Shown in pieces: positions 44,015 to 62,012 of a stretch of DNA of 62,012 nucleotides. Each line of letters begins with the position of its first letter. Within the stretch, counting starts at the first letter, position 1. The position numbers were made by a program, and so were the translations under genes. The DNA comes from an uncultured virus (IMG/VR IMGVR_UViG_3300042894_008159) (Duplodnaviria; Heunggongvirae; Uroviricota; Caudoviricetes). The notes beneath the pieces were generated by a model. That model searched no databases. It worked only from the letters and a program-made list of their open reading frames with translations, and was not told where the DNA came from. The stretch spans positions 62,001-124,012 of IMG/VR virus record IMGVR_UViG_3300042894_008159. One strand, 5' to 3'.

Positions 44015-45196
44015 CTACAAACCTTGCTCTTGTATAAGTAAATTAATTTGTTCAATCACAAGTTGTGGACTCAGCTTTGTGGTACACTCAAACATTCTTT
44101 CTGTATTTTTCAATCTAGGACACCAGTTCCAATCTCCACGATCAAACTTATATTTTACGTCGTTGAAACACCCGTGACACACATTTCTATTGATAACCCT
44201 ATAATTCATTCTCGAAAATTCACAGGATGGATCGGAAAACCCAGAAATCATAACCACTGGTTTTTGCAAAAACCACGCTAGCCAGGAAAGTCCAGAACCA
44301 ATGCCGATAAAAAAATCTGCTTGATAGATATCGGCCATTCTTTGTAAAATATCTCGGTCCCCGGTTTTATCTACCACACTCTCTAAAGTGTTGTTTTGTT
44401 TGTGAATGACCCGAACTTCATAACCAAGTATTCGAAGGTAATCCACTATTGTCTGCCATCCCTTTTCGTAGTGCCAGTGTTTGGCATTGGCTGTAGACTC
44501 TGTAGCCAAACAAACATATTTTCCGGATTCTCTTGGAGGCAAGCTATACAACCAATTAGGAAGTTGTGGAGGAAGTAAATCAGTTTTAACATCTATCCCC
44601 AGGATATCTCCTGCCACCTGTTGTAAAGAAATAGATCTAGGATCTCTGCGATGACAATTTCTATCTTCCTCTTCGTACCAGCCAACACCAAAAACTGCCT
44701 TAGCGGAATGATCCCTGTATCCGGGTGGGAAAAATTTAAGTTGTGGAAAAAATTGCGTTAGTAAAGAATTCCAAAAGGTAGTAACAATAACATCTGCCTG
44801 ATATTTATTCCGTAAAGCCTCTACCACCGGAACCCAGGCCAAAGTATCTCCTAATGAAGAGGAATCAATAGAAACCAAAATTTTCTGTTTGTGAAGAGAA
44901 GACTCAAAGTCAAAACTCCAGATTTCTTTGGTTCCTTCGTAAACCTCTACTCGCCATGGGGTAAACCATCTTCTGAAAACCGACGTAAATAATCCAGGAC
45001 TGGTTTCTGTCTCGAAAACATAATGATTGGTGTTTAGATCTTTGTATTTTATGGTTCTTTTAGTTTTTGGATTATTTCCAACCATATCAACTTTGGGGCC
45101 ATAATCAAAACTAAATTTGAAATCAAAAGTGTCTTTGACCCTACACCTAAGGTCTTTTACCACATTTTTATAAACATCTATACCTTTATTTTTCAT
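44015..45196 (-). CDS. TibC/AAH-family (autotransporter-type) protein O-heptosyltransferase
   Basis: SLGDT.AW.P, STA.AK.W....W..IV..L...GY, FFIG.GSGLSWLAW, VMISGFS...EF..YRVIN, four-Cys iron finger C..C...WCPR...FECT. Confidence 0.88.
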   Translation of the reverse strand: MKNKGIDVYKNVVKDLRCRVKDTFDFKFSFDYGPKVDMVGNNPKTKRTIKYKDLNTNHYVFETETSPGLFTSVFRRWFTPWRVEVYEGTKEIWSFDFESSLHKQKILVSIDSSSLGDTLAWVPVVEALRNKYQADVIVTTFWNSLLTQFFPQLKFFPPGYRDHSAKAVFGVGWYEEEDRNCHRRDPRSISLQQVAGDILGIDVKTDLLPPQLPNWLYSLPPRESGKYVCLATESTANAKHWHYEKGWQTIVDYLRILGYEVRVIHKQNNTLESVVDKTGDRDILQRMADIYQADFFIGIGSGLSWLAWFLQKPVVMISGFSDPSCEFSRMNYRVINRNVCHGCFNDVKYKFDRGDWNWCPRLKNTERMFECTTKLSPQLVIEQINLLIQEQGL

Positions 45197-46254
45197 GAAT
45201 TAAAACCTAAAATTTCTTGAATGAGACGAGTGTTGTAAGCTTTTCCTGATTTTTCAACATCTGAGGAAAAATAATGAACTAGAGGATTGTTATCATAATC
45301 ATCCATATACGAAGGCAATCTTCTCATCATGATAGGGAGTTTCCATGATAAAGATTCTTTTATTACAATGGGATTCAACTCCCAGACTGAATTGAAAACA
45401 AACAAATCAGCAGCTTGAAAAAATAAATCAGTATCGGATCTTTCCCCCCAAACTCTACAATTTTCTGGCACATTTTGAAGGATTGGCTCCCAGTATTCCT
45501 GAAAGTTACAGGCGAGATTTCCCACGAAATGAAACTCTATCGGAAGATGTGTCATCTCTCTGGCGAATTCAATTAATTCTCCTTGGTTTTTTCCTTGTGT
45601 GAAAAGACCAACGTTGATAACATGTTTTTTGTCAGGGTCTAAACCCAATAAATTTATAGCTTTTTCTTTCCCAATACTTTCGAAATTTTCAATTGGATAT
45701 TCCAACAAGTCCAAATTAAAACCAGAATTTTCGAAAACTTTTAACATCCATTTGTTGACCATCACGATTTTATCTGGACACCAAAATTTATCAGATGGTT
45801 TGTTGTTTGAAGAATGGCAGGTCTCAAAGATAAACCAGGGTCTATTTGGAACATAAATTTTCTCACACATCTCGTTACCAAGGAAAAATTCCACAAAATC
45901 TTGAAAATGAATAACGTCAGGACACACCCGATGAATAATTTCTAGGAATTCACTCTTGTCTTCCGAGTCCAATCTGAAGTAATTTTCTCCCAAAAGGTTT
46001 TGAATTCTTTCTCTCTGAACTGTGAATTGATCGGAAAGATTGTTATATTCAACACAGAATATTTCGGAAAAAGGCAACAGGCACTCAATACATTTATAAA
46101 GGTACTGAGGCATCCCTCCGGTGGAGAGATGAGGAGCAACGAAAAGGATCCTGGGTTTGTTACCTGAAATTTCTGAAATAGATTGTTCTACGTCGTATAA
46201 AGTTTGAGTTAAATTGTATTTTAATTTTCTAAGAGAAAAGGAAGGATCTAACAT
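45193..46254 (-). CDS. Glycosyltransferase, GT-B (GT4-like)
   Basis: PHLSTGGMPQY, NVGLF..GKNQ, ADLFVF.S..E..PIV..E; ATGA-coupled to the heptosyltransferase. Confidence 0.85.
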   Translation of the reverse strand: MLDPSFSLRKLKYNLTQTLYDVEQSISEISGNKPRILFVAPHLSTGGMPQYLYKCIECLLPFSEIFCVEYNNLSDQFTVQRERIQNLLGENYFRLDSEDKSEFLEIIHRVCPDVIHFQDFVEFFLGNEMCEKIYVPNRPWFIFETCHSSNNKPSDKFWCPDKIVMVNKWMLKVFENSGFNLDLLEYPIENFESIGKEKAINLLGLDPDKKHVINVGLFTQGKNQGELIEFAREMTHLPIEFHFVGNLACNFQEYWEPILQNVPENCRVWGERSDTDLFFQAADLFVFNSVWELNPIVIKESLSWKLPIMMRRLPSYMDDYDNNPLVHYFSSDVEKSGKAYNTRLIQEILGFNS

Positions 46255-46327
46255 TTAATTTTTAATTAGAATTCTGTTATTATGAATTAATAAATAAACA
46301 TTTTTATTGTTTCAAACTTTTTAGTTT

Positions 46328-46501
46328 TTACTCCAATTCTATGTTATTTTCATTTTCAGCTATATGCAAATTGTAATTATCAAGATTAATTCTATAAATT
46401 GTAAAATTGTCTCTTGGATATATTTCAACAATAGTACCATACAAAGGAACGTCACCTAATGTTTTTACTCTATCCCCTATTTCAAATTTGTATGTGATCA
46501 T
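46328..46501 (-). CDS. 57-aa SH3/KOW-like protein not in the ORF track
   Basis: MITYKFEIGDRVKTLGDVPLYGTIVEIYPRDNFTIYRINLDNYNLHIAENENNIELE*; ATG 4 nt after the upstream stop. Confidence 0.75.
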   Translation of the reverse strand: MITYKFEIGDRVKTLGDVPLYGTIVEIYPRDNFTIYRINLDNYNLHIAENENNIELE

Positions 46502-46505
46502 TGTT

Positions 46506-47747
46506 TTATGCTATATTGAATTGTGTTTTCAGAATATTATAGTTTGATAATACTTCGGCGTCAGTCAGAGTTCTATCGTAAATGTGTATTGAATACAAAT
46601 TACTTTCACCAATATAACCATCAAAACAAGAACCGGGGCCTCTACCCGTCATTAAATTACTATTAGCACCACTTGGTGTCGGATTAACAACCAAACCATT
46701 CTTTGTTGGTGATTGTAGAACACCATTGATATATGCTTTGGCATTATTTGTACCCGATTTACAACTTGCAACAATATAAAGGTCTTGATTAATCCAGTTT
46801 GCTGATGTTAATGTAAAACCAACACCACCACCAACACCATCAAAAAAATCAAGAGCAATATTTGGTGCAACGTTTACATTATTTGAAGTATTATACATAT
46901 AAAAACTAAACTTCCTGTTCGCACCCGAACAAAAATCCAAATTAATAAGTGCTGACCATCTGAAACCAGTGTTTCCGTGTGGAATACTTATTTGTCTTAA
47001 GAATACACAAACTGTTATTTCACTCGCACTACGTACTAAAGAAGCTCCAAGACCCCAATCGATGTATGGCGAAGATGATATGGCGTTATTAAATTGTAAT
47101 GATTTTGTTGATCCACCAACATAAGAAACATTTTCAGAGTTAATTATTGTTCCTGTATACCCATTTGGTGATAAATCAAATACACTTGTTCCTGTTCCTG
47201 GATAACTTGAACTATTGGACATATTGGTATAAAGAACCAAACCTGTTTGATTTATATCTTGGCTTGGAATTGTTGGTGTATTTGTTGGTGTTGGGGTTGG
47301 GGTTGAAGTTGACGTAACAGTAGGTGTAGGGGTTAAAGTTGGAGTCATGCTTGGTGTTGGTGTATTCGAGGGTGCAATTGACCCTTCAAATGATGTCCAG
47401 TAACCATTATTGTTCAACCAAATTTTGGCCTGTGCTCCTTGATTGGGTGCCCAAGAATCCGCTCCTGCAGCTAAGGTGTTTGCCAAATCAACGAAAGAAG
47501 ACTCTGTTAATTCAGAGGATCTGAAAAAGCCAACAGAGGCAAATACTCCTTCTATCGGAGTTGGTTGACTGTTGTCTGGAACAGATTGTGCAACTACATA
47601 ACCCAGCTGCTCGTCAGGACCATTCCACCAAGCAAGTCCAGTAGAAGAGAACCCTTCTGTAGGAAATCCAATAGCCAGATTGCCAATCTGTTCGGTACCT
47701 GCTATAGGAGATCCTGTGTTATATGCAAACGGTCTGGAAATTGACAT
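46506..47747 (-). CDS. Virion accessory protein: N-terminal anchor, Pro/Thr linker, LamG/ConA-like domain
   Basis: TPTP linker; GLVLY......SYPGTGT...DLS.NG..GT, YING, IYDR.LT..EV..NY; late motif at 47753. Confidence 0.8.
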   Translation of the reverse strand: MSISRPFAYNTGSPIAGTEQIGNLAIGFPTEGFSSTGLAWWNGPDEQLGYVVAQSVPDNSQPTPIEGVFASVGFFRSSELTESSFVDLANTLAAGADSWAPNQGAQAKIWLNNNGYWTSFEGSIAPSNTPTPSMTPTLTPTPTVTSTSTPTPTPTNTPTIPSQDINQTGLVLYTNMSNSSSYPGTGTSVFDLSPNGYTGTIINSENVSYVGGSTKSLQFNNAISSSPYIDWGLGASLVRSASEITVCVFLRQISIPHGNTGFRWSALINLDFCSGANRKFSFYMYNTSNNVNVAPNIALDFFDGVGGGVGFTLTSANWINQDLYIVASCKSGTNNAKAYINGVLQSPTKNGLVVNPTPSGANSNLMTGRGPGSCFDGYIGESNLYSIHIYDRTLTDAEVLSNYNILKTQFNIA

Positions 47748-47791
47748 TATTTTATATATCCACCAATCAAGATCTAATTGTCATTTGCAAT

Positions 47792-48064
47792 TTAAGAAAC
47801 TGTATAAACTCCAGAATTAAAATCTAACTTTCCTTCACCATATTTTGCGACAATTTCATCCACGAGCTGTTTTTCGTTTTCGTTTAATTGTAGTGTTTCT
47901 TGGTAAAGGTTTTGAATTTGTTCACCGACCGTGGTTACCTCTCTTTCAAGAAAGAATTTTTGGGCATTGAGTTGACCTATCTGCTGAATGTTATTTCGAG
48001 CTGCCTCCCTTAAATTTTGAATCCTATCCAATTCTTCAGGGGTAAGTTTAATTTGATTTTCCAT
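47792..48064 (-). CDS. Small coiled-coil protein, candidate fibre chaperone; paralog of 49311..49592
   Basis: L.PEEL..IQ...G.L...KYG.G.LD..SG; likely start MENQIK at 48064. Confidence 0.65.
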   Translation of the reverse strand: MENQIKLTPEELDRIQNLREAARNNIQQIGQLNAQKFFLEREVTTVGEQIQNLYQETLQLNENEKQLVDEIVAKYGEGKLDFNSGVYTVS

Positions 48065-48156
48065 TTTTATTTTTTTGTACTCCTGTTTCATCAAAATATT
48101 CCAATCCTATCCTTTGGAATTTTTTATAATTTTCCTGTACAATCTGAAATTCAAGA

Positions 48157-49314
48157 ATGAAACCTAAAATTTTAAGTTTGGTCCCAGATAGGCTTGAAAA
48201 ACCTATGGGAGGACTAGGAATTCAATACACACATATACATCCTTATTTACAAGAGAATTTTGAGGTATTCACTGTTTGTTATCCACACCTTACCCCACAA
48301 TTTTCATTTCCTAATACTAAACAAATTTACCCGTCATTTTTACCAGACCCAAAAGAACCAGGAAATCCTCTAATTTATAATCTGGCACACCAAATTAATT
48401 ATTTCACAGCTTCTTTAAAATTTCAACGACCTGATTTGATTCACGCCTACGATTGGCCATGCTACTTGGTAGCTAACCATCTGGCCATTTATTATGGGGT
48501 TCCTTTGGTGATGTCTTTGAGCTTAAGTATAAGAGGTCAAATCCAAAAAAATTTAAAAATTGTTTTTGATGACAAAAATTTCGATGGATTAACCACACAA
48601 AAAACTTTGGAGGGTTTGGAAACGGGGATGTTAAATTGTGCAGATATTATTGTTGGTGTCGGAAGTTTTTACAAAGACGTATATCCAGAATTTCGTTCGA
48701 AAATCAGAATTATTCCAAATGGAATCAATTTAGATTCTTGGATACCTAAGAGCCAAGTTTCAATACCTTTGGACAATGGTATAAATGTTCTATACATCGG
48801 AAGATTTGCCAAAATGAAAGGGTTTGATCATTTGATGAATGCAAATATTCCGGATGGGATTAATTTAATTGTGGCTGGATCATCTGAGGGAGGAGATTTA
48901 GAATGTGTAAATCTGCTTCAAGCTAAATTAGATTCGAAAAAAAAGAATTTATTTTTCTGTGGTCCTTTATATGGACAGAAAAAAATTGAACTCATGCACT
49001 CTGTAGAAGCAGTAATCATGCCCAGCGTTCATGAACCATTTGGCATTGTAGCTTTAGAAGCTTTTGCTTCCGGTGCCATATTGATTTCATCTCGTTTAGA
49101 TGGTTTGGGTGATTTTGTAAACGAAAGAAATTCAATGTTGGTAGAACCAACTCCAGAAGGAATTGAAAAATCCCTTGAAAATTTATTGAAATTGAAAGAA
49201 GAAGAAAAGTTGAAATTAAAAATAGAAGGTAGAAAAACCTGTGAGATCTTTACATGGAAAAATGCTGGAGAAAAAATGACAGAAGTCTACAATGAACTTC
49301 TAAAATCTCGTTAA
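48157..49314 (+). CDS. Glycosyltransferase family 4 (GT-B)
   Basis: GGLG, PDLIHA.DW, IPNGI, YIGR....KG, MPS.HEPFGIVALEA; the only convincing + strand gene. Confidence 0.92.
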   Translation: MKPKILSLVPDRLEKPMGGLGIQYTHIHPYLQENFEVFTVCYPHLTPQFSFPNTKQIYPSFLPDPKEPGNPLIYNLAHQINYFTASLKFQRPDLIHAYDWPCYLVANHLAIYYGVPLVMSLSLSIRGQIQKNLKIVFDDKNFDGLTTQKTLEGLETGMLNCADIIVGVGSFYKDVYPEFRSKIRIIPNGINLDSWIPKSQVSIPLDNGINVLYIGRFAKMKGFDHLMNANIPDGINLIVAGSSEGGDLECVNLLQAKLDSKKKNLFFCGPLYGQKKIELMHSVEAVIMPSVHEPFGIVALEAFASGAILISSRLDGLGDFVNERNSMLVEPTPEGIEKSLENLLKLKEEEKLKLKIEGRKTCEIFTWKNAGEKMTEVYNELLKSR

Positions 49315-49592
49315 TTTATAGGAGTTAAAATACCAGTTTCTAGGTCTAAACTGACGTTCCCATATTTATATTCCATGAGAGACATAAAATTTTTTTCTTC
49401 CTCTTTAAATTTCAAAAATTTTCTTTCAGTCTCTTTTTTCCTTTCTTGGAGATTAATTTCTTCCATCTTAAGAGAACCGAATTCAACCAAGAACATATCA
49501 CCAGATTTCCTGAATTCCTGAATTTTCTTTAATTCTTCTGGCTGTATCATATCTGAATATTCTTCTTTTCCTGTTTCTTCTATATTATTCAT
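49311..49592 (-). CDS. Small coiled-coil protein, paralog of 47792..48064
   Basis: I.PEEL.KIQ...FG.L...KYG...LDLETG. Confidence 0.65.
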   Translation of the reverse strand: MNNIEETGKEEYSDMIQPEELKKIQEFRKSGDMFLVEFGSLKMEEINLQERKKETERKFLKFKEEEKNFMSLMEYKYGNVSLDLETGILTPIN

Positions 49593-49897
49593 GTGCGAGA
49601 AAATGTTGCTTGTGAATTAATCGAATTTGCGGATTGTAGTTCTGGAATAACAAAAGTTTCTATTGCCTGAATGAGGCTGTTATAAGAATCCGAAATTGAA
49701 ATATCATAATTCAACTTGCTGCGATCTACGTTTGAAAAAACTACAGTATCTCTGTGAATTCCATCTTCAGAGACAACATGAAGATCAACGTGCAAATTTC
49801 CTTGGAAAGACAAATGGGCTACGATCTTCAAAAGAGGAGACTCGTGGATTAATTGCGAGGTTGGATTTTTGAATAAACCTGTAATCTGAATGGCCAT
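49589..49897 (-). CDS. Hypothetical late protein, fibre-associated by context
   Basis: 102 aa; late motif at 49917. Confidence 0.6.
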   Translation of the reverse strand: MAIQITGLFKNPTSQLIHESPLLKIVAHLSFQGNLHVDLHVVSEDGIHRDTVVFSNVDRSKLNYDISISDSYNSLIQAIETFVIPELQSANSINSQATFSRT

Positions 49898-49948
49898 AGA
49901 TTTCTATTAATTTTTATATATATCTTTGGAAATTAACCCATAAATAAA

Positions 49949-50602
49949 TTATTTTTTTAATCTTGATAAATAATCCAAAAAATTTCCTTCGTAGATTTTA
50001 ACACCGATGTGTTTACAGCACATAGAAGGATTTAACCAAATTTTAAAACCTAGATCTGTTAATTTTTTACACATCATTCTATCTTCACTCATCAAGTTTC
50101 CTTCAACAATACCAATATCAAAAACCATTCGATTTTGGGCTCCTTCGTTCCAATAGATTGAACTTTTCTCCCATAAAGTTAGTAGGGCCTTTCTTGACAG
50201 TTTCAAGAAACCAGTACCAATTCCTTCAACCTGCATCAATCCATGTTCATTGACTGATAAATTATTGGCGGATATAGGATAAATCTCCTTTGAATCTGTT
50301 TTTTTTGGATATGTTCCGCCAATAACATCAAGTGGGCTCTCTGCCAATTCAACAACCCATCGGGGGTTAAATTCCAAATCATGATCTATGAAAATTATAC
50401 TTTCTACCTGATGTTGAACCGCTAATTTAACAAGGTCGTTTCTGGCTCTTTGTACCAATGCATCATAGGAAAGAAAAATTGGGATTAAATCAATTTTTTT
50501 TAAAGATGCCTCTTTAATTGCTGAGAATAATGAAACTGCAAATTGGGCGGTAACCTTTCCATCATAGCACGGAGTTCCAATCATAATTTTTTTTTGAGAC
50601 AT
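49949..50602 (-). CDS. Glycosyltransferase, GT-A fold
   Basis: IGTPCY, LV.RARN, DxD motif FIDHD, GTGF....R, SED..C, C.H.G; starts 18 nt after the fibre stop. Confidence 0.8.
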   Translation of the reverse strand: MSQKKIMIGTPCYDGKVTAQFAVSLFSAIKEASLKKIDLIPIFLSYDALVQRARNDLVKLAVQHQVESIIFIDHDLEFNPRWVVELAESPLDVIGGTYPKKTDSKEIYPISANNLSVNEHGLMQVEGIGTGFLKLSRKALLTLWEKSSIYWNEGAQNRMVFDIGIVEGNLMSEDRMMCKKLTDLGFKIWLNPSMCCKHIGVKIYEGNFLDYLSRLKK

Positions 50603-50620
50603 TTAAATAGGTTAATTCCT

Positions 50621-56600: not shown

Positions 56601-59158
56601 GAACCAGATGACCCACTAGATCCAGAGGATCCTGATGAACCTGAGGTTCCCCTAGTACCAGAAGAGCCTGAAGTTCCGGAAGAACCAGAGGATCCACTAG
56701 ATCCAGATGAACCAGATGTTCCAGAAGATCCTGATGATCCTGAGGATCCACTCGAACCAGAAGATCCCGAAGAACCAGAAGAGCCTGAAGTTCCGGAAGA
56801 ACCAGAGGATCCACTAGATCCTGATGAACCAGATGTTCCAGAAGAGCCAGAGGATCCGCTAGATCCAGAGGATCCAGATGAACCTGATGTTCCAGAAGAT
56901 CCTGAGGATCCACTTGAACCAGAAGATCCCGAAGAACCAGATGATCCTGATGAACCAGATGTTCCAGAAGAGCCAGATGATCCGCTAGATCCAGAGGATC
57001 CAGATGAACCTGATGTTCCAGAAGATCCAGAAGATCCGCTAGATCCAGATGAACCTGATGTTCCAGAAGATCCCGAGGATCCACTAGAACCAGAAGATCC
57101 CGAAGAACCAGATGATCCTGATGAACCAGATGTTCCAGAAGATCCAGATGATCCGCTAGATCCAGAGGATCCAGATGAACCTGAAGTTCCAGAAGAACCA
57201 GACGATCCCGAGGATCCACTTGAACCAGATGACCCACTAGATCCAGAGGATCCTGATGAACCTGAGGTTCCCCTAGTACCAGAAGAGCCTGAAGTTCCGG
57301 AAGACCCAGAGGATCCGCTAGATCCAGATGAACCTGATGTTCCAGAAGATCCTGAGGATCCTGATGATCCACTCGAACCAGAAGATCCCGAAGAACCAGA
57401 TGATCCTGACGAACCAGATGTTCCCATAGTACCAGAAGAGCCTGAGGTTCCGGAAGAACCAGAAGAACCTGAGGATCCACTTGATCCAGATGAACCAGAG
57501 GTTCCAGAAGAACCAGAAGATCCGCTAGATCCAGAGGATCCCGATGAACCAGAAGAACCAGATGATCCTGACGAACCGGATGTTCCAGAAGAACCTGATG
57601 ACCCCGAAGATCCACTGGAGCCCGAAGAACCAGACGTTCCAGAAGATCCAGATGATCCTGAAGATCCACTCGAACCAGAAGATCCAGATGTTCCGCTAGA
57701 TCCAGATGATCCGCTAGATCCAGAAGAACCACTCGAACCAGAAGAACCAGAAGATCCCGATGAACCAGACGTTCCTCTTGTACCGGAAGAACCCGATGAT
57801 CCGCTAGATCCGGAGGATCCTGAAGAACCAGATGTTCCAGAAGAGCCAGACGATCCCGAGGATCCACTCGAACCAGAAGAACCAGAAGATCCCGATGAGC
57901 CACTAGTTCCTGATGTACCATTTACACCAGATAGTCCAGAAGTACCATTAGATCCCGAGGATCCACTAGTTCCAGATGTACCATTTACACCAGATAGTCC
58001 AGAAGTACCTGAAGATCCAGATGAACCAGAAGATCCGCTAGATCCCGAGGATCCACTCGAACCAGATGAACCAGAAGAACCAGAGGATCCGCTAGATCCG
58101 GATGAACCTGAAGATCCGCTAGATCCAGAAGATCCCGATGAACCCGAAGTTCCAGAAGAACCTGATGATCCCGAAGATCCACTAGATCCAGAAGACCCCG
58201 AAGATCCGCTCGATCCAGATGAACCAGATGTTCCAGAAGAACCAGATGATCCAGAAGATCCACTCGACCCAGAAGAACCAGATGATCCAGAAGAACCACT
58301 AGATCCAGATGAACCAGAAGTTCCAGAAGAACCAGATGATCCAGAAGTTCCACTCGATCCAGAAGAACCAGACGATCCAGAAGATCCACTCGATCCAGAA
58401 GAACCTGATGTACCAGAAGATCCACTAGATCCAGATGAACCAGAAGTTCCAGAAGAACCCGAAGATCCAGAAGAACCCGAAGATCCAGAAGAACCAGATG
58501 ATCCAGAAGAACCAGAGGATCCTGAAGATCCACTTGAACCAGATGAACCTGAAGTTCCAGAAGATCCAGAAGAGCCAGAGGATCCCGAGGATCCACTTGA
58601 ACCGGATGATCCAGAAGATCCGGATGTACCAGAAGAACCAGAGGATCCTGAAGATCCACTAGATCCAGATGTTCCTCTAGTTCCAGAAGAGCCAGAGGAT
58701 CCTGAAGATCCACTCGATCCGGATGATCCCGAAGTTCCAGAAGAACCAGATGATCCAGAAGAACCACTTGATCCGGATGTACCGGAAGTTCCGGCAGAAA
58801 CTTGCCATCCGGAACCGGTATATCTATAAATTTGTCCATCCGAGGAATTAAAAATTATCATCCCCACTGCTGGATTAGGTACAGAATTTATGTCATTAAA
58901 AATAGGAAGAATTAAACCACTCCCTTTTACAAAAGAAGCATCGTTAATAAGTACATTTCCAGCTGTTGCCCCTGTTGCCTGAATAAAAATTGAATCGCTC
59001 TGTCCAGAAGGATATATTCTAATTGAACCATTGTCCAACACCTGAAAAGTTATTGGCTGATTTTCAGCAGTACCCCCGGCACCAAAGAATTTAAGAGTAC
59101 CTTGCCTAGGTTCAATCTGTATGTTTTTTCCTGAAGTTCCAAAAGGTCCGGTTGGCAT
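50621..59158 (-). CDS. Giant fibre protein: N-terminal anchor, (Gly-Ser/Thr-Ser)n shaft, beta-helical repeat head, C-terminal S74-type intramolecular chaperone
   Basis: 2845 aa; Gly at every third residue over 53750..58792; N(V/T)A(V/I)G..AL repeats; SDIRLKKNI...G.IAQE....PEAV...LVNAIQEL...IE.LE. Confidence 0.88.
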   Translation of the reverse strand: MPTGPFGTSGKNIQIEPRQGTLKFFGAGGTAENQPITFQVLDNGSIRIYPSGQSDSIFIQATGATAGNVLINDASFVKGSGLILPIFNDINSVPNPAVGMIIFNSSDGQIYRYTGSGWQVSAGTSGTSGSSGSSGSSGSSGTSGSSGSSGSSGSSGSSGTRGTSGSSGSSGSSGSSGTSGSSGSSGSSGSSGSSGSSGSSGTSGSSGSSGSSGSSGSSGSSGSSGSSGSSGSSGSSGTSGSSGSSGSSGTSGSSGSSGSSGSSGSSGSSGTSGSSGSSGTSGSSGSSGSSGSSGSSGSSGSSGSSGSSGTSGSSGSSGSSGSSGSSGSSGSSGSSGTSGSSGSSGSSGSSGSSGSSGSSGSSGSSGSSGSSGSSGSSGSSGSSGTSGLSGVNGTSGTSGSSGSNGTSGLSGVNGTSGTSGSSGSSGSSGSSGSSGSSGSSGTSGSSGSSGSSGSSGSSGTRGTSGSSGSSGSSGSSGSSGSSGSSGSSGTSGSSGSSGSSGSSGSSGTSGSSGSSGSSGSSGSSGTSGSSGSSGSSGSSGSSGSSGSSGSSGTSGSSGSSGSSGSSGSSGTSGSSGTMGTSGSSGSSGSSGSSGSSGSSGSSGSSGTSGSSGSSGSSGSSGTSGSSGTRGTSGSSGSSGSSGSSGSSGSSGSSGSSGTSGSSGSSGSSGSSGSSGTSGSSGSSGSSGSSGSSGSSGSSGTSGSSGSSGSSGSSGTSGSSGSSGSSGSSGSSGTSGSSGSSGSSGSSGSSGSSGSSGTSGSSGSSGSSGSSGSSGTSGSSGSSGSSGSSGTSGSSGSSGSSGSSGSSGSSGSSGTSGSSGSSGSSGSSGTSGSSGTRGTSGSSGSSGSSGSSGSSGSSGSSGSSGTSGSSGSSGTSGSSGSSGSSGSSGTRGTSGSSGSSGSSGSSGTSGSSGSSGSSGSSGSSGSSGSSGSSGSSGTSGSSGSSGSSGSSGSSGSSGSSGSSGTSGSSGSSGSSGSSGSSGSSGSSGSSGSSGTSGSSGSSGSSGSSGSSGTSGSSGSSGSSGSSGTSGSSGSSGSSGTSGSSGSSGSSGSSGSSGTSGSSGSSGSSGSSGSSGSSGTSGSSGSSGSSGSSGSSGSSGSSGSSGTSGSSGSSGSSGSSGTSGSSGSSGSSGSSGSSGTSGSSGSSGSSGSSGSSGSSGSSGSSGSSGTSGSSGSSGSSGSSGTRGTSGSSGSSGSSGSSGSSGSSGSSGSSGTSGSSGSSGSSGSSGSSGSSGSSGSSGTSGSSGSSGSSGSSGSSGSSGTSGSSGSSGSSGSSGSSGSSGSSGSSGTSGSSGSSGSSGSSGTRGTSGSSGSSGSSGSSGTSGSSGSSGSSGSSGSSGSSGSSGSSGSSGTSGSSGSSGSSGSSGSSGSSGTSGSSGSSGSSGSSGSSGSSGTSGSSGSSGSSGSSGSSGSSGSSGSSGSSGTSGSSGSSGSSGSSGTRGTSGSSGSSGSSGSSGSSGSSGSSGTSGSSGSSGSSGSSGTSGSSGSSGSSGSSGSSGSSGSSGSSGSSGTSGSSGSSGSSGSSGSSGTSGSSGSSGSSGSSGSSGSSGSSGSSGTSGSSGSSGSSGSSGSSGTSGSSGSSGTSGSSGSSGSSGSSGSSGTSGSSGTRGTSGSSGSSGSSGSSGSSGSSGSSGSSGTSGSSGSSGSSGSSGSSGSSGSSGSSGSSGTSGSSGSSGSSGSSGSSGTSGSSGSSGSSGSSGSSGSSGSSGSSGSSGTSGSSGSSGSSGSSGSSGTSGSSGSSGSSGSSGSSGSSGSSGSSGSSGTSGSSGSSGSSGSSGSSGTSGSSGSSGSSGSSGSSGSSGTSGFATLSGSTDNGVLTLNGSSPNVTVESDLTYTSPTLSFTGTGSPTTGASQIYLNGVTSNRIDFNTNGAGPPAFTTRSAGTKVVLYPSVGAASVDIGMGYMADGGVPSMWYSIIGSAANGAYYWYAGTTQIMALVNLAAGTRRLDLTAGTVTNPSISAGLNSADTNTGIYFPAADTIGFVEGGVEVMRIHDTGRITIGGTTAPTFTLEVLSSDMAVNSVRVGRGAGSIATNVVLGPTALNANTTGANNVAIGSSALDVNTTGVQNIAIGSDSLGANLINSNNVAVGFNSLLLNTADNNVAIGSRALDANTTGTPNVAIGTDALGANATGTNNVALGHNALLLNTTNNNVAVGSRALDANTTGTPNVAIGTDALGANATGTNNVALGHNALLLNTTNNNVAIGSLALDANTTGTPNVAVGTNALGVNNTGANNVAVGHQTLDANTTGVRNVAVGNEALGAVATGTDNTAFGHNALLLNTTNNNVAIGSLALDANTTGTPNVAVGTNALGLNNTGANNVAVGHQTLDANTTGVRNVAVGNEALGAVATGVDNTAFGHNALLLNTVSNNVAIGSLALDANTTGTPNVAVGTNALGLNTTGANNVAVGHQTLDANTTGVQNVAIGNDALGANATNSNNVAVGHNALLLNTADNNVAVGSRALDSNTTGTPNVAIGTLALEANTTGANNVAVGHSALDVNTTGIQNVAVGNDALGANATNSNNVAVGHNALLLNTADNNVAVGSRALDSNTTGTPNLAVGFNALGVNTTGANNVAVGYQALDDNTTGIQNVAIGNDALGANVVNSNNVAIGHNALLLSTADNNVAVGSQALDSNTTGDNNLAAGSASLSSNTTGNQNTAVGSESLKNVTVGARNVAAGYQAGSQLINGTGNVIIGRGAEGSATNAVNQIVIGDLAGGIADDTAFIGGTNGAYNGQNDPSWQVNSDIRLKKNIIDNSQGLSIINSIRVRNFEYRKEDEIIEIPKNRAIKKPGIQIGVIAQEFQLIIPEAVSETSDGVLSVNSSRVTWHLVNAIQELTSRIETLEKSLPKD
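51000..53110 (-). repeat. 13-14-aa N-V-A-V/I-G-x-x-A-L beta-helix-type repeats with recent block duplications
   Basis: Visible in translation; near-identical DNA blocks repeated around 52560-52850, 52010-52560 and 51500-51900. Boundaries approximate. Confidence 0.85.
53750..58792 (-). repeat. About 560 tandem 9-bp units encoding Gly-X-Y (mostly GSS/GTS)
   Basis: 5043 bp = 1681 codons; variant triplets (GTR, GLS, GVN, GSN, GTM) keep the Gly register. Confidence 0.95.
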
Positions 59159-59160
59159 GA

Positions 59161-62012
59161 TTACTTATTACTTTGTATATATTCAACTACCAAACGCTCA
59201 ACATCCTTTCTCTCGGCAAAAACGGTGTAAAAAAGATTTATTTCTTCACAATTGCCGCCAATTAAAATTTTGTTATCTAGAATTTCTTCTACGAAGTAAA
59301 GACAAGGCTTTCCTATAGGGGTTAGAATTACGGATATTGAATCAGAATGAATTAGATCCGCCCAATAATAAGGTAAAAGGATTTCTTTGCAATTTTGGAG
59401 ACGCCCCCTAACAAACACACCAACTTCTGGACCTTCCAAAACCGAATATCTCAATCTCCATGGTTCCTTTTTAGAAGGATGAAGAATATCAAAATTCTTT
59501 TGATTTGCGTTTATTATGTCGAAGTTGTCCAAAATGTTTGTTCCATCTCCATCAATATTTCCTCCAGCTTTCATATTGATACTACCGCCGTTAGTCTGAA
59601 GTTCTGCTCCATTTATCTTGACAGTATTACCAGTTGAATCTATCGCAACAGGGATACTTCCCAAAGAAATAACAGTTCCATTGTCAGTTATAGAGGAGTT
59701 CCCTATTGTTGTTGAACTTGTGAATTTAACTACAGTGTTTGTTGTTCCCGAAACAGAAACTGATGTTCCAGATGTACCAGAAGTTCCCCTGGTTCCAGAA
59801 GATCCCGATGTACCAGAAGAACCGGATGTACCAGAAGATCCACTAGATCCAGATGAACCGGAGGATCCAGAAGAACCTGAAGATCCAGACGATCCACTTG
59901 ATCCAGAAGAACCTGATGTTCCAGAAGAACCAGATGATCCTGAAGATCCACTTGATCCAGAAGAACCAGAAGTTCCTCTGGTTCCAGAAGAACCTGATGT
60001 TCCAGAAGAACCAGACGATCCGGAAGATCCGGATGTACCAGATGATCCACTAGATCCAGATGAACCGGATGATCCAGAAGAACCCGATGACCCACTTGAA
60101 CCAGAAGATCCCGATGTTCCAGAAGATCCGGATGATCCACTTGAACCAGAAGAGCCGGATGTACCAGAGGATCCACTAGATCCAGATGAACCGGATGATC
60201 CAGAAGAACCGGACGTTCCGGAAGATCCTGAAGATCCACTCGAACCAGAAGATCCGCTAGATCCAGAAGATCCTGATGAACCAGATGTTCCAGAAGACCC
60301 GGAGGATCCGCTGGATCCAGATGATCCTGAAGAGCCAGATGTTCCAGAAGACCCGGATGATCCTGAAGATCCGCTAGATCCAGAAGATCCTGATGAACCA
60401 GATGTTCCAGAAGACCCGGATGATCCGCTGGATCCAGATGATCCTGAAGAACCAGATGTTCCAGAAGACCCGGATGATCCTGAGGATCCACTAGATCCAG
60501 AAGATCCTGAAGAACCAGATGTTCCAGAAGACCCGGATGATCCGCTGGATCCAGATGATCCTGAAGAACCAGAGGATCCCGAGGATCCACTAGAACCAGA
60601 GGATCCAGATGAACCAGAGGTTCCTGAAGAACCAGAGGTTCCTGAAGAACCAGAAGATCCAGACGAACCGGAGGATCCAGAAGAACCTGAAGATCCACTT
60701 GATCCAGAAGAACCAGAAGTTCCTCTGGTTCCAGAAGAACCAGAAGATCCTGATGATCCACTAGATCCAGAAGAACCTGAAGAACCTGATGTTCCAGAAG
60801 AACCTGACGACCCGCTTGAACCTGAAGAACCCGATGTTCCGGAAGAACCAGACGATCCAGAAGATCCGCTAGACCCTGAAGAACCTGAAGATCCGGATGT
60901 TCCGGAAGAACCTGATGATCCGCTTGATCCAGATGAACCAGATGTTCCAGAAGAACCTGATGACCCGCTAGAACCTGAAGAACCCGATGTTCCGGATGAA
61001 CCTGATGATCCAGAAGAACCCGAAGATCCAGAAGATCCACTGGATCCAGAAGAACCAGAAGATCCGGATGTTCCTGAAGAACCTGAAGATCCACTTGATC
61101 CAGAAGACCCAGATGTACCAGAAGAACCAGAAGATCCGCTTGATCCAGAAGAACCGGAAGATCCAGATGTACCAGAAGAACCTGAAGATCCACTTGATCC
61201 AGAAGACCCAGATGTACCAGAAGATCCAGAGGATCCACTCGAACCAGAAGAACCTGATGTACCTGAGGATCCACTAGATCCAGATGAACCGGATGTACCA
61301 GAAGATCCACTAGATCCAGATGAACCGGAGGATCCAGAGGAACCGGAAGATCCAGATGTTCCAGAAGAACCAGATGATCCAGAAGATCCACTTGATCCAC
61401 TTGATCCAGATGTACCAGAAGACCCAGAGGATCCACTTGAACCAGAAGAGCCGGATGTACCAGAGGATCCACTAGATCCAGATGAACCGGAGGATCCAGA
61501 GGAACCGGAAGATCCAGAGGATCCAGATGTTCCAGAAGAACCAGATGATCCAGAAGATCCACTTGATCCAGATGTACCAGAAGACCCAGAGGATCCACTT
61601 GAACCAGAAGAGCCGGATGTACCAGAGGATCCACTAGATCCAGATGAACCGGATGATCCAGAAGAACCCGATGACCCGCTTGTACCAGAAGATCCACTAG
61701 ATCCAGATGAACCGGAGGATCCGGAAGATCCGCTAGATCCCGAAGAACCGGAAGATCCAGAAGATCCGCTAGACCCAGAAGAACCTGATGTTCCCGAAGA
61801 ACCCGATGATCCACTTGATCCAGAAGAACCTGAAGATCCAGAGGTTCCGGAAGAACCAGAAGATCCAGAAGATCCAGATGTTCCTGAAGAACCTGAAGAT
61901 CCACTTGATCCAGAAGAACCTGAAGATCCGGATGTTCCCGAAGAACCAGATGATCCGCTTGATCCAGATGAACCGGATGTTCCAGAAGAACCCGATGTCC
62001 CACTAGAACCCG
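59161..62012 (-). CDS. Second GSS-repeat fibre protein, 5' end beyond the window; C-terminal chaperone-like domain
   Basis: The track's 59161..59664 frame continues upstream (...GTSGTSVSVSGTTNTVVKFTSSTTIGNSSITDNG...) through GSS repeats to the edge; C-terminus K.F.I.HP....L....LEGPE..V..RG...LP.YW..L...LTP.G...ERKD. Confidence 0.85.
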   Translation of the reverse strand, partial: GSSGTSGSSGTSGSSGSSGSSGSSGTSGSSGSSGSSGSSGSSGTSGSSGSSGSSGTSGSSGSSGSSGSSGSSGTSGSSGSSGSSGSSGSSGSSGSSGSSGSSGSSGSSGTSGSSGSSGSSGSSGSSGSSGTSGSSGSSGSSGSSGTSGSSGSSGSSGSSGTSGSSGSSGSSGSSGSSGSSGSSGTSGSSGSSGSSGSSGTSGSSGSSGSSGSSGSSGTSGSSGSSGSSGSSGSSGSSGTSGSSGSSGSSGTSGSSGSSGSSGSSGTSGSSGSSGSSGSSGTSGSSGSSGSSGSSGSSGTSGSSGSSGSSGSSGTSGSSGSSGSSGSSGSSGSSGSSGSSGTSGSSGSSGSSGSSGTSGSSGSSGSSGSSGTSGSSGSSGSSGSSGSSGSSGTSGSSGSSGSSGSSGTSGSSGSSGSSGSSGSSGSSGTRGTSGSSGSSGSSGSSGSSGSSGSSGSSGTSGSSGTSGSSGSSGSSGSSGSSGSSGSSGSSGSSGSSGTSGSSGSSGSSGSSGSSGSSGTSGSSGSSGSSGSSGSSGTSGSSGSSGSSGSSGSSGSSGTSGSSGSSGSSGSSGSSGTSGSSGSSGSSGSSGSSGSSGSSGTSGSSGSSGSSGSSGSSGTSGSSGSSGSSGSSGTSGSSGSSGSSGSSGSSGSSGSSGSSGTSGSSGSSGSSGTSGSSGTRGTSGSSGSSGSSGSSGSSGTSGSSGSSGSSGSSGSSGSSGSSGSSGSSGTSGSSGTSGSSGTRGTSGTSGTSVSVSGTTNTVVKFTSSTTIGNSSITDNGTVISLGSIPVAIDSTGNTVKINGAELQTNGGSINMKAGGNIDGDGTNILDNFDIINANQKNFDILHPSKKEPWRLRYSVLEGPEVGVFVRGRLQNCKEILLPYYWADLIHSDSISVILTPIGKPCLYFVEEILDNKILIGGNCEEINLFYTVFAERKDVERLVVEYIQSNK
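59761..62012 (-). repeat. At least ~250 Gly-Ser/Thr-Ser triplet units, truncated by the window
   Basis: Same 9-bp degenerate unit as 53750..58792. Confidence 0.93.

What the first reader, a model, noticed from the sequence alone, without database searches (positions are those of the whole stretch)
44015..62012. Candidate phage-encoded protein O-heptosylation system that glycosylates giant Ser-rich virion fibres
Seen: a heptosyltransferase-like gene (44015..45196) with SLGD and a four-Cys motif, two GT4-like genes and one GT-A gene, all clustered with two GSS-repeat fibres and a Pro/Thr-linker LamG protein; an HldE-type heptose kinase lies at 16862..17860. Established: TibC/AAH enzymes transfer heptose from ADP-heptose to many serines of autotransporter passengers (TibA, AIDA-I), and the HldE kinase is a step of ADP-heptose synthesis. 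Inference: the phage helps make the donor, primes roughly 1000 Ser/Thr per fibre chain with heptose, and extends them with the other GTs, giving a mucin-like glycan brush for stiffness, protease shielding, adhesion or LPS mimicry. I know of no characterised phage virion heptosylation.
Basis: partly seen in the sequence, partly recalled or inferred. Interest (0 to 1): 0.92.

Follow-up and report, generated by a model that had tools for sequence, protein, structure and literature searches.

The report
Phage TibC-like enzyme beside serine-collagen fibres
A large uncultured phage carries a true relative of TibC, the enzyme E. coli uses to sugar-coat an adhesin, next to giant proline-free Gly-Ser-Ser collagen-like fibre genes, and the same enzyme-plus-repeat pairing recurs in other phages and in bacterial lipoproteins, so the phage probably sugar-coats its own fibres, though no sugar has been measured.

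Summary
Window 44015-45196 (-) encodes a 393-aa protein. It passes the curated TIGR04414 (Aah/TibC) model at 266.7 bits (cutoff 200) and models onto TibC at TM 0.81-0.83. It keeps the catalytic Asp, the ADP-heptose contacts and all four iron-binding Cys. Its start overlaps the stop of a GT4 gene.

The "GSS fibres" are uninterrupted, proline-free collagen-type G-X-Y repeats. One has 561 triplets with Ser/Thr at 1103 of 1122 X/Y positions.

The link is comparative only:
- 53 of 62 viral loci with the enzyme also have the GT4 partner, fused in one frame in 15.
- 34 of 62 hold a Ser/Thr-rich collagen-like ORF within 10 kb.
- In a tree of 127 enzymes, all 42 collagen-linked rows lie on one side and all 16 AIDA-autotransporter-linked rows on the other.
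- Eight gammaproteobacterial chromosomal loci place the enzyme, without the GT4, between lipoproteins with (GSS)n tails.

The donor claim is weaker. A heptose-7-phosphate-kinase-like gene is present, just below its cutoff, and occurs in 4 of 5 lineage relatives. No GmhA or adenylyltransferase was found.

No sugar, acceptor site or triple helix has been shown. I found nothing in print. This scan has noted the same system on other DNA.

The parts
44015..45196 (-). TibC/Aah-family (BAHT-like) protein O-glycosyltransferase, probably a heptosyltransferase (P0001, 393 aa)
   Evidence: TIGR04414 266.7 bits, cutoff 200. PDB TibC E 5e-54. Model pLDDT 89, TM 0.81-0.83 to 4rap/4rb4. D117, T235, K239, W305 and four Cys are invariant in 24 phage homologs. 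9-residue deletion at the TibC thumb.
45193..46254 (-). GT4a: retaining-type GT-B glycosyltransferase, the conserved partner; its stop overlaps the enzyme's start by 4 nt
   Evidence: Pfam Glycos_transf_1 33.4 bits. Model pLDDT 92; best PDB matches BshA, MshA, PimB', HepE. Homolog in 53 of 62 viral loci, fused in frame with the TibC-like domain in 15.
46506..47747 (-). Protein with a Pro/Thr-rich linker and a C-terminal LamG/concanavalin-like domain; possible virion protein
   Evidence: Translation. No Pfam hit. PHROG virion-structural C-terminal match E 1.5e-5. Atlas Laminin_G_3 TM 0.73-0.80. Found only in close relatives.
47792..48094 (-). Small 100-aa protein of unknown function; shares a similar C-terminal end with 49311-49592
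   Evidence: Translations. No Pfam or PHROG hit. Homologs in lineage relatives.
48157..49314 (+). GT4b: GT4/GlgA-like glycosyltransferase on the opposite strand
   Evidence: Pfam Glycos_transf_1 70.3 bits, Glyco_transf_4 36.9 bits. PDB GlgA E 1e-17. Present only in some lineage relatives.
49311..49897 (-). Two small ORFs (93 aa and 102 aa) of unknown function
   Evidence: No family hits. Conserved in lineage relatives.
49949..50602 (-). 217-aa virus-specific protein, probably GT-A/GT2-like
   Evidence: phrog_1574, function unknown, E 6.5e-20. Pfam GT2 only E 0.047. Atlas structural TM 0.92 to a GT2 cluster.
50621..59158 (-). Giant fibre P0002 (2845 aa): 122-aa N-terminus; 561 G-X-Y triplets at residues 123-1805; about 930-aa Asn/Thr-rich repeat region; S74 intramolecular-chaperone domain
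   Evidence: Pfam Collagen 730.9 bits. Peptidase_S74 at residues 2740-2805. Ser/Thr at 1103 of 1122 X/Y positions; 0 Pro.
59161..62012 (-). Second fibre P0003, N-terminus cut by the contig end: 250 G-X-Y triplets plus a 199-aa unassigned C-terminal domain
   Evidence: Ser/Thr at 497 of 500 X/Y positions.
16862..17860 (-). [quoted passage not shown]
   Evidence: TIGR02198 311.2 bits, cutoff 345, positions 5-313 of 315. Conserved in 4 of 5 lineage relatives.
41398..43947 (-). 849-aa neck/head-closure-like protein immediately downstream; places the cluster in the virion-gene block
   Evidence: Weak T4_neck-protein hit and phrog_679 head closure. Followed by the large terminase 38805-40604 and the sheath 35145-38708.

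Best explanation
The cluster is a phage-encoded protein O-glycosylation module. Its most likely acceptor is the proline-free (Gly-Ser/Thr-Ser)n collagen-like part of the phage's own giant fibres.

Proposed mechanism:
1. During late infection, in the host cytoplasm, the TibC-like enzyme transfers a sugar to Ser hydroxyls of the G-S-S repeats. The sugar is most likely heptose from host-made ADP-heptose, with flux topped up by the phage kinase.
2. The translationally coupled GT4 partner then adds a second sugar or serves a second class of sites.
3. GT4b and the GT-A-like protein are lineage-specific extras.

Shown here: enzyme family, intact active site, fold, gene coupling, and the genomic association with the repeats.
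Inferred: the acceptor, heptose as the sugar, the order of the two enzymes, and any effect on fibre stiffness, stability or adhesion.
For: Enzyme:
- TIGR04414 above cutoff. TibC E 5e-54 over residues 43-386.
- Model TM 0.81-0.83 to TibC, including the N-terminal beta-barrel, against 0.43-0.60 for WaaC/WaaF.
- TibC D110, T226, K230, R286, W305 and C339/342/358/370 map to D117, T235, K239, R286, W305 and C340/343/359/371. I mapped these by hand from the alignment; the residue roles come from passages of PMC4358343.
- All but R286 are invariant in 24 phage homologs.

Coupling:
- 4-nt overlap with GT4a.
- A GT4a homolog in 53 of 62 viral loci. Of the 9 without one, 7 are cut at the enzyme's start.
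- Fused in one frame in 15 loci.

Acceptor:
- A Ser/Thr-rich collagen-like ORF lies in the held flank of 34 of 62 viral loci, or 16 of 26 clusters at 70% identity.
- It starts 0-139 bp after the enzyme in 8 loci.
- Tree of 127 domains: a 66-row clade (SH-aLRT 95) holds 42 collagen-linked and 0 AIDA-linked rows. A 59-row clade (SH-aLRT 100) holds 16 AIDA-linked and 0 collagen-linked rows.
- Eight gammaproteobacterial loci, one of them a 5.2-Mb chromosome with ordinary neighbours, put the enzyme without GT4a between lipoproteins with (GSS/GTS)n tails. 13 of 15 such ORFs have a lipobox.
- TibC modifies short synthetic Gly/Ser-rich peptides, on Ser and not Thr (passages of PMC4358343).

Donor:
- A heptose-kinase-like gene in the window and in 4 of 5 lineage relatives.

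Setting:
- The cluster is co-directional with the neck, terminase and sheath genes.
- The fibre has an S74 chaperone domain.
Against: - There is no biochemical or mass-spectrometric evidence of any kind. Everything linking enzyme to fibre is gene neighbourhood.
- Clustering inside genomes is partial. In five large enzyme-bearing contigs, only 4 of 10 collagen-repeat ORFs lie within 10 kb of the enzyme. One contig 92% complete has only a marginal 139-aa hit, and one has its fibres 41 and 111 kb away.
- 28 of 62 viral loci show no Ser/Thr-collagen ORF in the held flank. Many are truncated, but L024/25, L026/27 and L068 have roughly 5-10 kb on each side. Some of these instead have poly-Thr or other G/S/T-rich ORFs.
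- No lineage-matched phage lacking the enzyme was found to serve as a control.
- The enzyme lacks the 9 residues of the TibC thumb, including F265/V266, which TibC needs for its active dodecamer.
- R286, the adenine contact, is not conserved across the clade. Position 300, the heptose stereoselectivity site, is Gly, neither the Pro of TibC nor the Ser of AAH.
- The kinase scores below its curated cutoff. GmhA and the adenylyltransferase were found in none of the records searched, and the kinase is missing from other enzyme-bearing phages.
- Known BAHTs recognise a beta-helix. The fibre also has a long Asn/Thr-rich repeat region that could be the real target.
- The host is unknown, so it is not known whether ADP-heptose is available.
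Confidence: 0.55

Rival explanations
1. Same acceptor, different sugar. The collagen-linked clade has changed donor, so the fibres are O-glycosylated but not heptosylated. The kinase-like gene would then serve another purpose.
For: - R286, the adenine contact of TibC, is not conserved outside the window's subgroup, and position 300 is Gly.
- TIGR04414 scores of the clade (248-325 bits) are far below those of classical enzymes (502-565 bits).
- Two complete and one 92%-complete enzyme-bearing phage genomes encode no heptose-pathway gene.
- One phage homolog is in a Microcystis phage. Cyanobacterial LPS is said to lack heptose (recalled, not checked).
Against: - The heptose O4 contact W305, the beta-phosphate contacts T235 and K239, and the catalytic Asp are invariant in 24 homologs.
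- The only solved relatives, and the next-best structural matches, all use ADP-heptose.
- The lineage keeps a heptose-7-phosphate-kinase-like gene.
Confidence: 0.15
2. A different protein acceptor. The enzyme modifies another part of the virion or another phage protein, and the G-S-S repeats merely travel with fibre genes. Candidates are the Asn/Thr-rich beta-solenoid-like repeat region at the fibre's C-terminus and the Pro/Thr linker of the LamG protein.
For: - Characterised BAHTs act on beta-helical passengers (PMC4358343).
- P0002 residues about 1806-2739 are made of roughly 16-residue Asn/Val/Gly/Thr repeats.
- Some loci without collagen ORFs have poly-Thr or other G/S/T-rich neighbours.
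- Fibre genes lie far from the enzyme in some genomes.
Against: - The bacterial loci pair the enzyme with small lipoproteins whose only shared feature with the phage fibres is the (GSS/GTS)n tract.
- Homologs of the fibre's C-terminal region and of the LamG protein occur only in close relatives, while the enzyme-collagen pairing spans the clade.
- TibC accepts unfolded Gly/Ser-rich peptides.
Confidence: 0.15
3. A host-directed function. The enzymes remodel host envelope molecules (LPS, host lipoproteins or adhesins) during infection, for example to block superinfection.
For: - Phage glycosyltransferases that alter host surface glycans are well known (recalled).
- PHROGs files the GT4 genes under 'moron, auxiliary metabolic gene and host takeover'.
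- The bacterial relatives act on exported lipoproteins.
Against: - The enzyme sits inside the virion-gene block, co-directional with and between the fibre and neck genes.
- It groups with protein-modifying, not LPS, heptosyltransferases.
- Its closest recurrent neighbour across phages is a phage fibre gene.
Confidence: 0.07
4. DNA hypermodification. The glycosyltransferases and the heptose kinase decorate modified cytosines in phage DNA.
For: A preprint (10.1101/2023.12.21.572611; passages read) reports phage clusters that put hexose, HexNAc, Kdo or heptose on 5hmC. A dCMP-deaminase-like gene lies at 30446-31024.
Against: - Those DNA enzymes are T4 beta-GT-like or GT-A, not BAHT-like.
- No cytosine methyltransferase, TET/5mYOX or hydroxymethylase domain was seen in the 90 ORFs scanned.
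- The TibC-like protein keeps the protein-GT-specific beta-barrel and iron finger.
Confidence: 0.02

Closest known systems
TibC-TibA and Aah-AIDA-I of E. coli (bacterial autotransporter heptosyltransferases, BAHT; TIGR04414; PDB 4RAP/4RB4; PMC4358343)
   Same: - Homologous over the full length (E 5e-54; TM 0.81-0.83).
- Same N-terminal beta-barrel, GT-B core and four-Cys iron finger.
- Same catalytic Asp and ADP-heptose contacts.
- Gene placed next to a Ser- and Gly-rich repetitive surface protein.
- Cytoplasmic hyper-O-glycosylation of many Ser residues is the expected chemistry.
   Different: - The neighbour is a proline-free G-X-Y fibre or a lipoprotein tail, not an AIDA-repeat autotransporter.
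- Separate clade with no mixing of neighbour types and lower model scores (248-325 against 502-565 bits).
- The thumb that builds the TibC dodecamer is shortened by 9 residues.
- A conserved GT4 partner, often fused, that classical loci lack (0 of 59 rows of the classical clade).
- Encoded by phages.
GtfA/GtfB glycosylation of serine-rich repeat adhesins (GspB, Fap1, PsrP) in Gram-positive bacteria (recalled from general knowledge, not checked here)
   Same: Works alike in outline: cytoplasmic GT-B enzymes densely O-glycosylate long Ser-rich repeats of a fibrillar surface protein, a first sugar is extended by further transferases, and the enzymes are encoded beside the substrate.
   Different: - No sequence relationship to the priming enzyme here.
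- GtfA is GT4 and transfers GlcNAc.
- The repeats are not G-X-Y.
- GT4a's best structural matches were BshA, MshA and PimB'; no SRRP enzyme appears among the matches printed (ranks to 49).
Glycosylated collagen-like surface proteins: BclA of the Bacillus anthracis exosporium and the collagen-like fibrils of Mimivirus (recalled, not checked here)
   Same: Collagen-like G-X-Y repeats on a spore or virion surface that carry O-linked sugars on Thr or on hydroxylysine; the repeat length sets the fibre length.
   Different: - BclA repeats are proline-rich (GPT).
- The enzymes are unrelated to BAHTs.
- The fibres here have no proline at all and are about 98% Ser/Thr at X and Y.
Mycobacteriophage virion glycosylation by phage-encoded glycosyltransferases (recalled; no paper read here)
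   Same: Phage-encoded GTs that O-glycosylate the phage's own structural proteins.
   Different: Different enzymes, different acceptors (C-terminal tails of capsid and tail-tube proteins, as recalled), no heptose, no collagen-like repeats.

Membership tests
TIGR04414 / BAHT-like sequence family (TibC, Aah) | Score above the curated whole-protein cutoff of the NCBIfam equivalog model, over the full length | tested here: met
   266.7 bits against cutoff 200, model positions 11-372 of 374; same result on the whole record.
TIGR04414 / BAHT-like sequence family (TibC, Aah) | Catalytic base Asp-110 and sugar-nucleotide contacts Thr-226, Lys-230, Arg-286, Trp-305 (PMC4358343) | tested here: met
   They map to D117, T235, K239, R286 and W305 in the alignment. 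D, T, K and W are invariant in 24 phage homologs; R is kept only in the window's subgroup.
TIGR04414 / BAHT-like sequence family (TibC, Aah) | Four-Cys 1Fe-0S iron-finger motif | tested here: met
   C340, C343, C359 and C371 align with TibC C339/342/358/370 and are invariant. Iron binding itself was not tested.
TIGR04414 / BAHT-like sequence family (TibC, Aah) | Fold: N-terminal flattened beta-barrel plus GT-B catalytic domain, closer to TibC than to LPS GT9 enzymes | tested here: met
   Model pLDDT 89. TM 0.81-0.83, E 3e-31 to 4rap/4rb4. WaaC/WaaF TM 0.43-0.60.
BAHT in the strict sense (autotransporter-modifying dodecamer) | Beta-hairpin thumb with two hydrophobic tip residues (TibC F265/V266) that builds the dodecamer | tested here: not met
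   9-residue gap opposite TibC 259-267 in the alignment. Some other phage subgroups keep an insert there.
BAHT in the strict sense (autotransporter-modifying dodecamer) | Gene adjacent to an AIDA/TibA-type autotransporter substrate | tested here: not met
   No AIDA, ESPR or Autotransporter domain in 90 ORFs of the 124-kb record. 0 of 66 rows of its clade have an AIDA-like neighbour, against 16 of 59 in the classical clade. 8 of 9 large neighbours tested in classical loci had AIDA repeats.
BAHT in the strict sense (autotransporter-modifying dodecamer) | Transfers heptose from ADP-heptose to Ser of the substrate | not testable with these tools
   Needs enzyme assay or mass spectrometry.
Collagen-like (triple-helix repeat) proteins | Long uninterrupted Gly-X-Y periodicity | tested here: met
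   561, 250 and 411 triplets in P0002, P0003 and P0004. Pfam Collagen 730.9 and 352 bits.
Collagen-like (triple-helix repeat) proteins | Pro/Hyp or charged residues at X/Y that stabilise the helix (as in known bacterial collagens; recalled) | tested here: not met
   0 Pro. Ser/Thr at 1103 of 1122 X/Y positions in P0002 and 497 of 500 in P0003.
Collagen-like (triple-helix repeat) proteins | Trimerisation module and actual triple-helix formation | tested here: inconclusive
   P0002 ends in a Peptidase_S74 intramolecular-chaperone domain typical of trimeric phage fibres. None was found for P0003. The helix itself is not testable here.
ADP-heptose biosynthesis pathway (GmhA, HldE/HldA kinase, GmhB, HldE/HldC adenylyltransferase, HldD) | Heptose-7-phosphate kinase | tested here: inconclusive
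   TIGR02198 311.2 bits, below cutoff 345. Full-length match; next-best kinase model 70 bits.
ADP-heptose biosynthesis pathway (GmhA, HldE/HldA kinase, GmhB, HldE/HldC adenylyltransferase, HldD) | The remaining enzymes encoded by the phage | tested here: not met
   TIGR02199 0 of 10 records; TIGR00441 0 of 5 records. No SIS, HAD, cytidylyltransferase or epimerase Pfam domain in 90 ORFs. The record is only about 45% complete.

The most novel reading that the evidence does not exclude
A distinct branch of the TibC/Aah family recognises the bare Gly-Ser-Ser repeat as a portable 'glycosylate me' signal, used both by phage fibres and by bacterial lipoproteins. In the phage, dense O-heptosylation, extended by the GT4 partner, takes the place of hydroxyproline. 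It lets a proline-free chain of 561 triplets form a stable collagen triple helix about 0.5 micrometre long. That would be a new way to build collagen and the first heptosylated virion.
Probability: 0.25. Interest if true: 0.85.

Novelty: new variant of a known kind. Interest (0 to 1): 0.72.

Why it matters
Protein O-heptosylation is known only for a few autotransporter adhesins of Gram-negative pathogens.

If this reading is right, the enzyme family has a second, larger acceptor class: proline-free Gly-Ser/Thr-Ser repeats. That class is used by many uncultured large phages for their fibres and by some bacteria for lipoprotein tails.

It would matter in four ways:
- It would explain how collagen-like chains without proline can be made stiff or protease-resistant.
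- It would add a sugar coat to the factors that set phage adsorption, host range and immune recognition.
- It would give a simple enzyme-plus-tag pair for dense site-specific glycosylation in E. coli.
- It shows that the automatic name 'autotransporter strand-loop-strand O-heptosyltransferase' is misleading for this clade.

The idea is directly testable with two genes and a repeat fragment.

Tried and rejected
- Reverse co-occurrence test. I meant to find Ser/Thr-collagen DNA in viral contigs independently of the enzyme, using a degenerate pattern. P(enzyme | fibre) therefore remains unmeasured.
- Lineage-matched negative control. Relatives of the adjacent neck protein gave 19 loci, all close relatives. 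Every one with upstream sequence has the enzyme pair, so no enzyme-free sister was available.
- Complex prediction for the enzyme with GT4a. Nothing was folded.
- GT4a against PDB sequences: no hit. Its fold search gave only generic retaining GT4 enzymes, so the donor and acceptor stay open.
- Pfam on the fibre N-termini, the P0003 C-terminal domain, the globular insert of P0004 and the LamG-like protein: no hits even at E <= 1.
- The 639-aa protein annotated 'cytidylyltransferase like' in Microcystis phage Mel-JY01: no Pfam or NCBIfam support.
- Circular closure of the record (P0004 continuing into P0003). The frames differ by 2 nt, and the record lacks replication genes, so this was not pursued.
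- tRNA scan for host clues: none found.
- Literature searches found no paper linking BAHT-type enzymes to collagen-like repeats or to phage virions. Subscription journals are not covered, including Lu et al. 2014, which defines the acceptor motif.

Full report
SETTING. The window is the second half (62001-124012) of a 124,012-bp linear viral record that CheckV rates about 45% complete. Its large terminase is only 31-39% identical to those of uncultured huge phages, Sphingomonas phage PAU and the Lak phages. A scan of 90 ORFs found T4-type capsid, portal, sheath, baseplate and terminase genes, but no DNA polymerase. So this is a fragment of a large myovirus-like phage of unknown host. No tRNA was found. 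Nearly all genes lie on the minus strand.

THE OBSERVATION. The minus-strand gene order is as follows:
- fibre P0003 (59161-62012, cut by the contig end)
- fibre P0002 (50621-59158)
- a 217-aa GT-A-like protein
- two small ORFs
- GT4b, on the plus strand
- a 100-aa ORF
- a Pro/Thr-linker LamG-like protein
- GT4a (45193-46254)
- the TibC-like gene (44015-45196)
- then neck-like, terminase and sheath genes

GT4a's stop overlaps the TibC-like start by 4 nt.

The fibres are collagen-type repeats. P0002 has one uninterrupted run of 561 G-X-Y triplets (residues 123-1805): 460 GSS, 85 GTS, Ser/Thr at 1103 of 1122 X/Y positions, and no proline. P0003 has 250 triplets. A third fibre at the other contig end (P0004) has 411. 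P0002 ends in a long Asn/Thr-rich repeat region and a Peptidase_S74 intramolecular-chaperone domain, as trimeric phage fibres do. If the repeat forms a triple helix, at the textbook rise of 0.286 nm per residue (recalled), P0002's helix would be about 480 nm long.

Long ORFs in other frames and on the other strand of the repeat are by-products of the repeat. Only the G-S-S frame runs unbroken from the N-terminal domain to the S74 domain.

THE ENZYME. P0001 passes NCBI's curated model for Aah/TibC at 266.7 bits (cutoff 200) over positions 11-372 of 374. LPS heptosyltransferase models reach only 20-29 bits. It aligns with the TibC crystal-structure sequence at E 5e-54. An AlphaFold model built on 24 phage homologs (pLDDT 89) superposes on TibC at TM 0.81-0.83, beta-barrel included. 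WaaC and WaaF reach 0.43-0.60.

I read the residue roles from passages and section 11 of PMC4358343 and mapped them by hand on the alignment:
- The catalytic base D110 corresponds to D117.
- The beta-phosphate contacts T226 and K230 correspond to T235 and K239.
- The adenine contact R286 corresponds to R286.
- The heptose contact W305 corresponds to W305.
- The iron ligands C339/342/358/370 correspond to C340/343/359/371.

All but R286 are invariant in 24 phage homologs of 32-66% identity.

There are two differences. A 9-residue gap removes the tip of the beta-hairpin thumb (TibC F265/V266), which the paper shows is needed for the active dodecamer. Position 300, which sets D,D- against L,D-heptose preference, is Gly. 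PHROGs has no family for this protein.

DOES IT GO WITH THE FIBRES? A scan of IMG/VR found 62 loci encoding a relative, at 32-100% identity.

First, the GT4a gene is the constant companion. It is present in 53 of 62 loci. Seven of the nine exceptions are contigs cut at the enzyme's first codon. It overlaps or abuts the enzyme, or is fused to it in one reading frame in 15 loci. FkbM methyltransferase, GT2, DXD-GT or pyruvyltransferase domains are often in the same polypeptide. The other cluster genes (GT4b, GT-A-like, LamG-like, small ORFs) occur only in close relatives.

Second, 36 of 62 loci hold an ORF with at least 15 G-X-Y triplets in the flank held. In 34 of them Ser/Thr fill at least half of X/Y. 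That is 16 of 26 clusters after de-replication at 70% identity. In eight loci this ORF starts 0-139 bp after the enzyme. In others it lies upstream or on the opposite strand, so the linkage survives rearrangement. Many negatives are truncated contigs, including one 100% identical to the window. Several well-flanked negatives instead have a poly-Thr protein or other Gly/Ser/Thr-rich giants next door.

Third, 80 loci from bacterial genomes give an internal control:
- Classical loci (Kosakonia, Franconibacter, Selenomonadaceae, Lentisphaerae and others) have AIDA-repeat autotransporters adjacent. Eight of nine large neighbours tested carry Pfam AIDA. They have no Ser/Thr-collagen ORF and no GT4a.
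- The bacterial enzymes closest to the phage ones sit beside Ser/Thr-rich G-X-Y ORFs. Six of nine tested pass Pfam's Collagen cutoff, two fall just below it, and one has no hit.

A maximum-likelihood tree of 127 enzyme domains separates the two kinds cleanly (quick search, LG+G4, midpoint root). A clade of 59 rows (SH-aLRT 100) has 16 AIDA-linked and 0 collagen-linked rows. A clade of 66 rows (SH-aLRT 95) has 42 collagen-linked and 0 AIDA-linked rows. The window's 12-row phage clade is sister (support 89) to eight gammaproteobacterial rows. TIGR04414 scores mirror the split: 502-565 bits against 248-325 bits.

Fourth, those eight gammaproteobacterial loci show what the shared feature is. In a 5.2-Mb Arenicellales chromosome, the enzyme lies among two-component and metabolic genes. 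It has no GT4a, and it is flanked by three small proteins with a signal peptide and lipobox, a (GSS/GTS/GTG)n tract and a poly-Asp end. Across the eight loci, 13 of 15 such ORFs have a canonical lipobox. One has L-Y-G-C and one could not be read from a start codon. The only feature these lipoproteins share with the phage fibres is the Gly-Ser/Thr-Ser tract. Since TibC modifies short Gly/Ser-rich synthetic peptides on Ser, the tract itself is the most economical candidate acceptor. The TibC-like enzyme, which is sufficient in the bacterial loci, is then the likely priming enzyme, and GT4a is a phage-side addition.

WHAT WEAKENS IT. Inside five large enzyme-bearing contigs, the Pfam collagen model finds 10 collagen-bearing ORFs. 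Only 4 lie within 10 kb of the enzyme. Chance would give about 1, but that baseline comes from genomes chosen for having the enzyme. One contig 92% complete has only a marginal 139-aa hit, and one has its fibres 41 and 111 kb away. I also could not find an enzyme-free sister lineage. No experiment bears on any of this.

THE DONOR. Window 16862-17860 is clearly heptose-7-phosphate-kinase-like: 311 bits over the full model, against a cutoff of 345. It is kinase-only. It recurs at 299-313 bits in 4 of 5 large contigs of the same lineage. It is absent from three other enzyme-bearing phage records and represented only by a weak 52-bit PfkB kinase in a fourth; two of the four are complete and one is 92% complete. 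The adenylyltransferase model hit 0 of 10 records and GmhA hit 0 of 5. No SIS, HAD, cytidylyltransferase or epimerase domain was seen in the record. No kinase homolog lies in the held flanks of the 62 viral loci.

So the donor must come essentially from the host, with this lineage perhaps boosting one step. Heptose remains the best guess because the heptose- and phosphate-contacting residues are invariant. It is not shown.

RIVALS. I considered four:
- a changed sugar donor
- another protein acceptor: the fibre's Asn/Thr-rich repeat region or the Pro/Thr linker
- remodelling of the host envelope
- DNA hypermodification, which phages do perform with heptose, but with unrelated enzymes (passages of 10.1101/2023.12.21.572611)

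They are scored in their own section.

COMPARISON AND NOVELTY. The enzyme belongs to the TibC/Aah sequence family. It does not meet two features of the family in its strict sense: the autotransporter partner and the dodecamer thumb. It works most like TibC-TibA. In outline it also resembles the GtfA/GtfB systems that glycosylate serine-rich repeat adhesins (recalled).

I found no paper on BAHT-type enzymes with collagen-like acceptors or in phage virions. The six searches were made, over open-access papers and bioRxiv only. A 2026 glycoproteomics paper (passages of PMC13417296) reports wider heptosylation in E. coli but nothing on phages or collagen-like repeats.

This scan has already noted the same enzyme-plus-fibre pairing on other DNA: 82 notes in at least 70 genomes. 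Those are unchecked AI notes and are not counted as evidence. My own tests agree with them.

VERDICT. It is a new variant of a known kind of system.

Noticed in passing
window 17871-19478 and 19481-21106 (-): Two adjacent T4-type portal (gp20) genes, 53% identical over 500 residues. Both match Portal_T4 at full length. The heptose-kinase-like gene follows directly.
   Followed up: partly
L003 1-4548 (-) = record 1-4548; window 59161-62012: Both ends of the 124-kb record break inside Gly-Ser-Ser repeats, on the same strand. Several related contigs are also 110-128 kb long. Assemblies evidently break at these fibre genes. The N-terminal piece (P0004) and the C-terminal piece (P0003) could be one gene or two.
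   Followed up: partly
L003 1129-1614 (-), residues 979-1140 of P0004: A roughly 160-residue globular insert between two collagen runs of the third fibre. No Pfam hit even at E <= 1.
   Followed up: partly
window 50624-53743 (-), residues 1806-2739 of P0002: Long region of roughly 16-residue Asn/Val/Gly/Thr-rich repeats between the collagen part and the S74 domain. It has 29 N-x-S/T sequons and no Pfam family. Possibly a beta-solenoid stalk.
   Followed up: no
L074 8513-12583 (also L069-L075, L122): Gammaproteobacterial chromosomes carry a TibC-like gene flanked by small lipoproteins with (GSS/GTS)n tails ending in poly-Asp or poly-Glu. One type has a CarboxypepD_reg-like domain. This looks like an undescribed bacterial lipoprotein glycosylation module.
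   Followed up: partly
L024 11462-13939; L045 6889-16857: In some phages without a collagen ORF, the enzyme is followed within 4-27 bp by a protein with long poly-Thr/Ala/Gly runs or by Gly/Ser/Thr-rich giants (478 and 2844 aa).
   Followed up: no
L035 3608-7471; L082 6214-8520; L068 5153-10915: Multi-enzyme polyproteins built around the TibC-like domain. Two loci have two GT9 stretches in one ORF. One 1921-aa ORF combines FkbM and other methyltransferase, DXD-GT, pyruvyltransferase, GT1 and GT9 domains.
   Followed up: partly
L163 13316-13819 and 14959-16863: In one lineage relative, the large terminase is split into two ORFs about 1.1 kb apart. This suggests an intervening element (intron, intein or homing endonuclease).
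   Followed up: no
window 21736-22221, 22222-22581, 29817-30434; L006 6166-7602; L004 7820-8521: Other cargo in the record: a TnsA-like endonuclease, two sigma-70-like factors, an asparagine synthase and a PhoH-like ATPase.
   Followed up: no
window 47792-48094 and 49311-49592 (-): Two small proteins (100 and 93 aa) with similar C-terminal ends and no family assignment. They flank GT4b and are conserved in lineage relatives.
   Followed up: no
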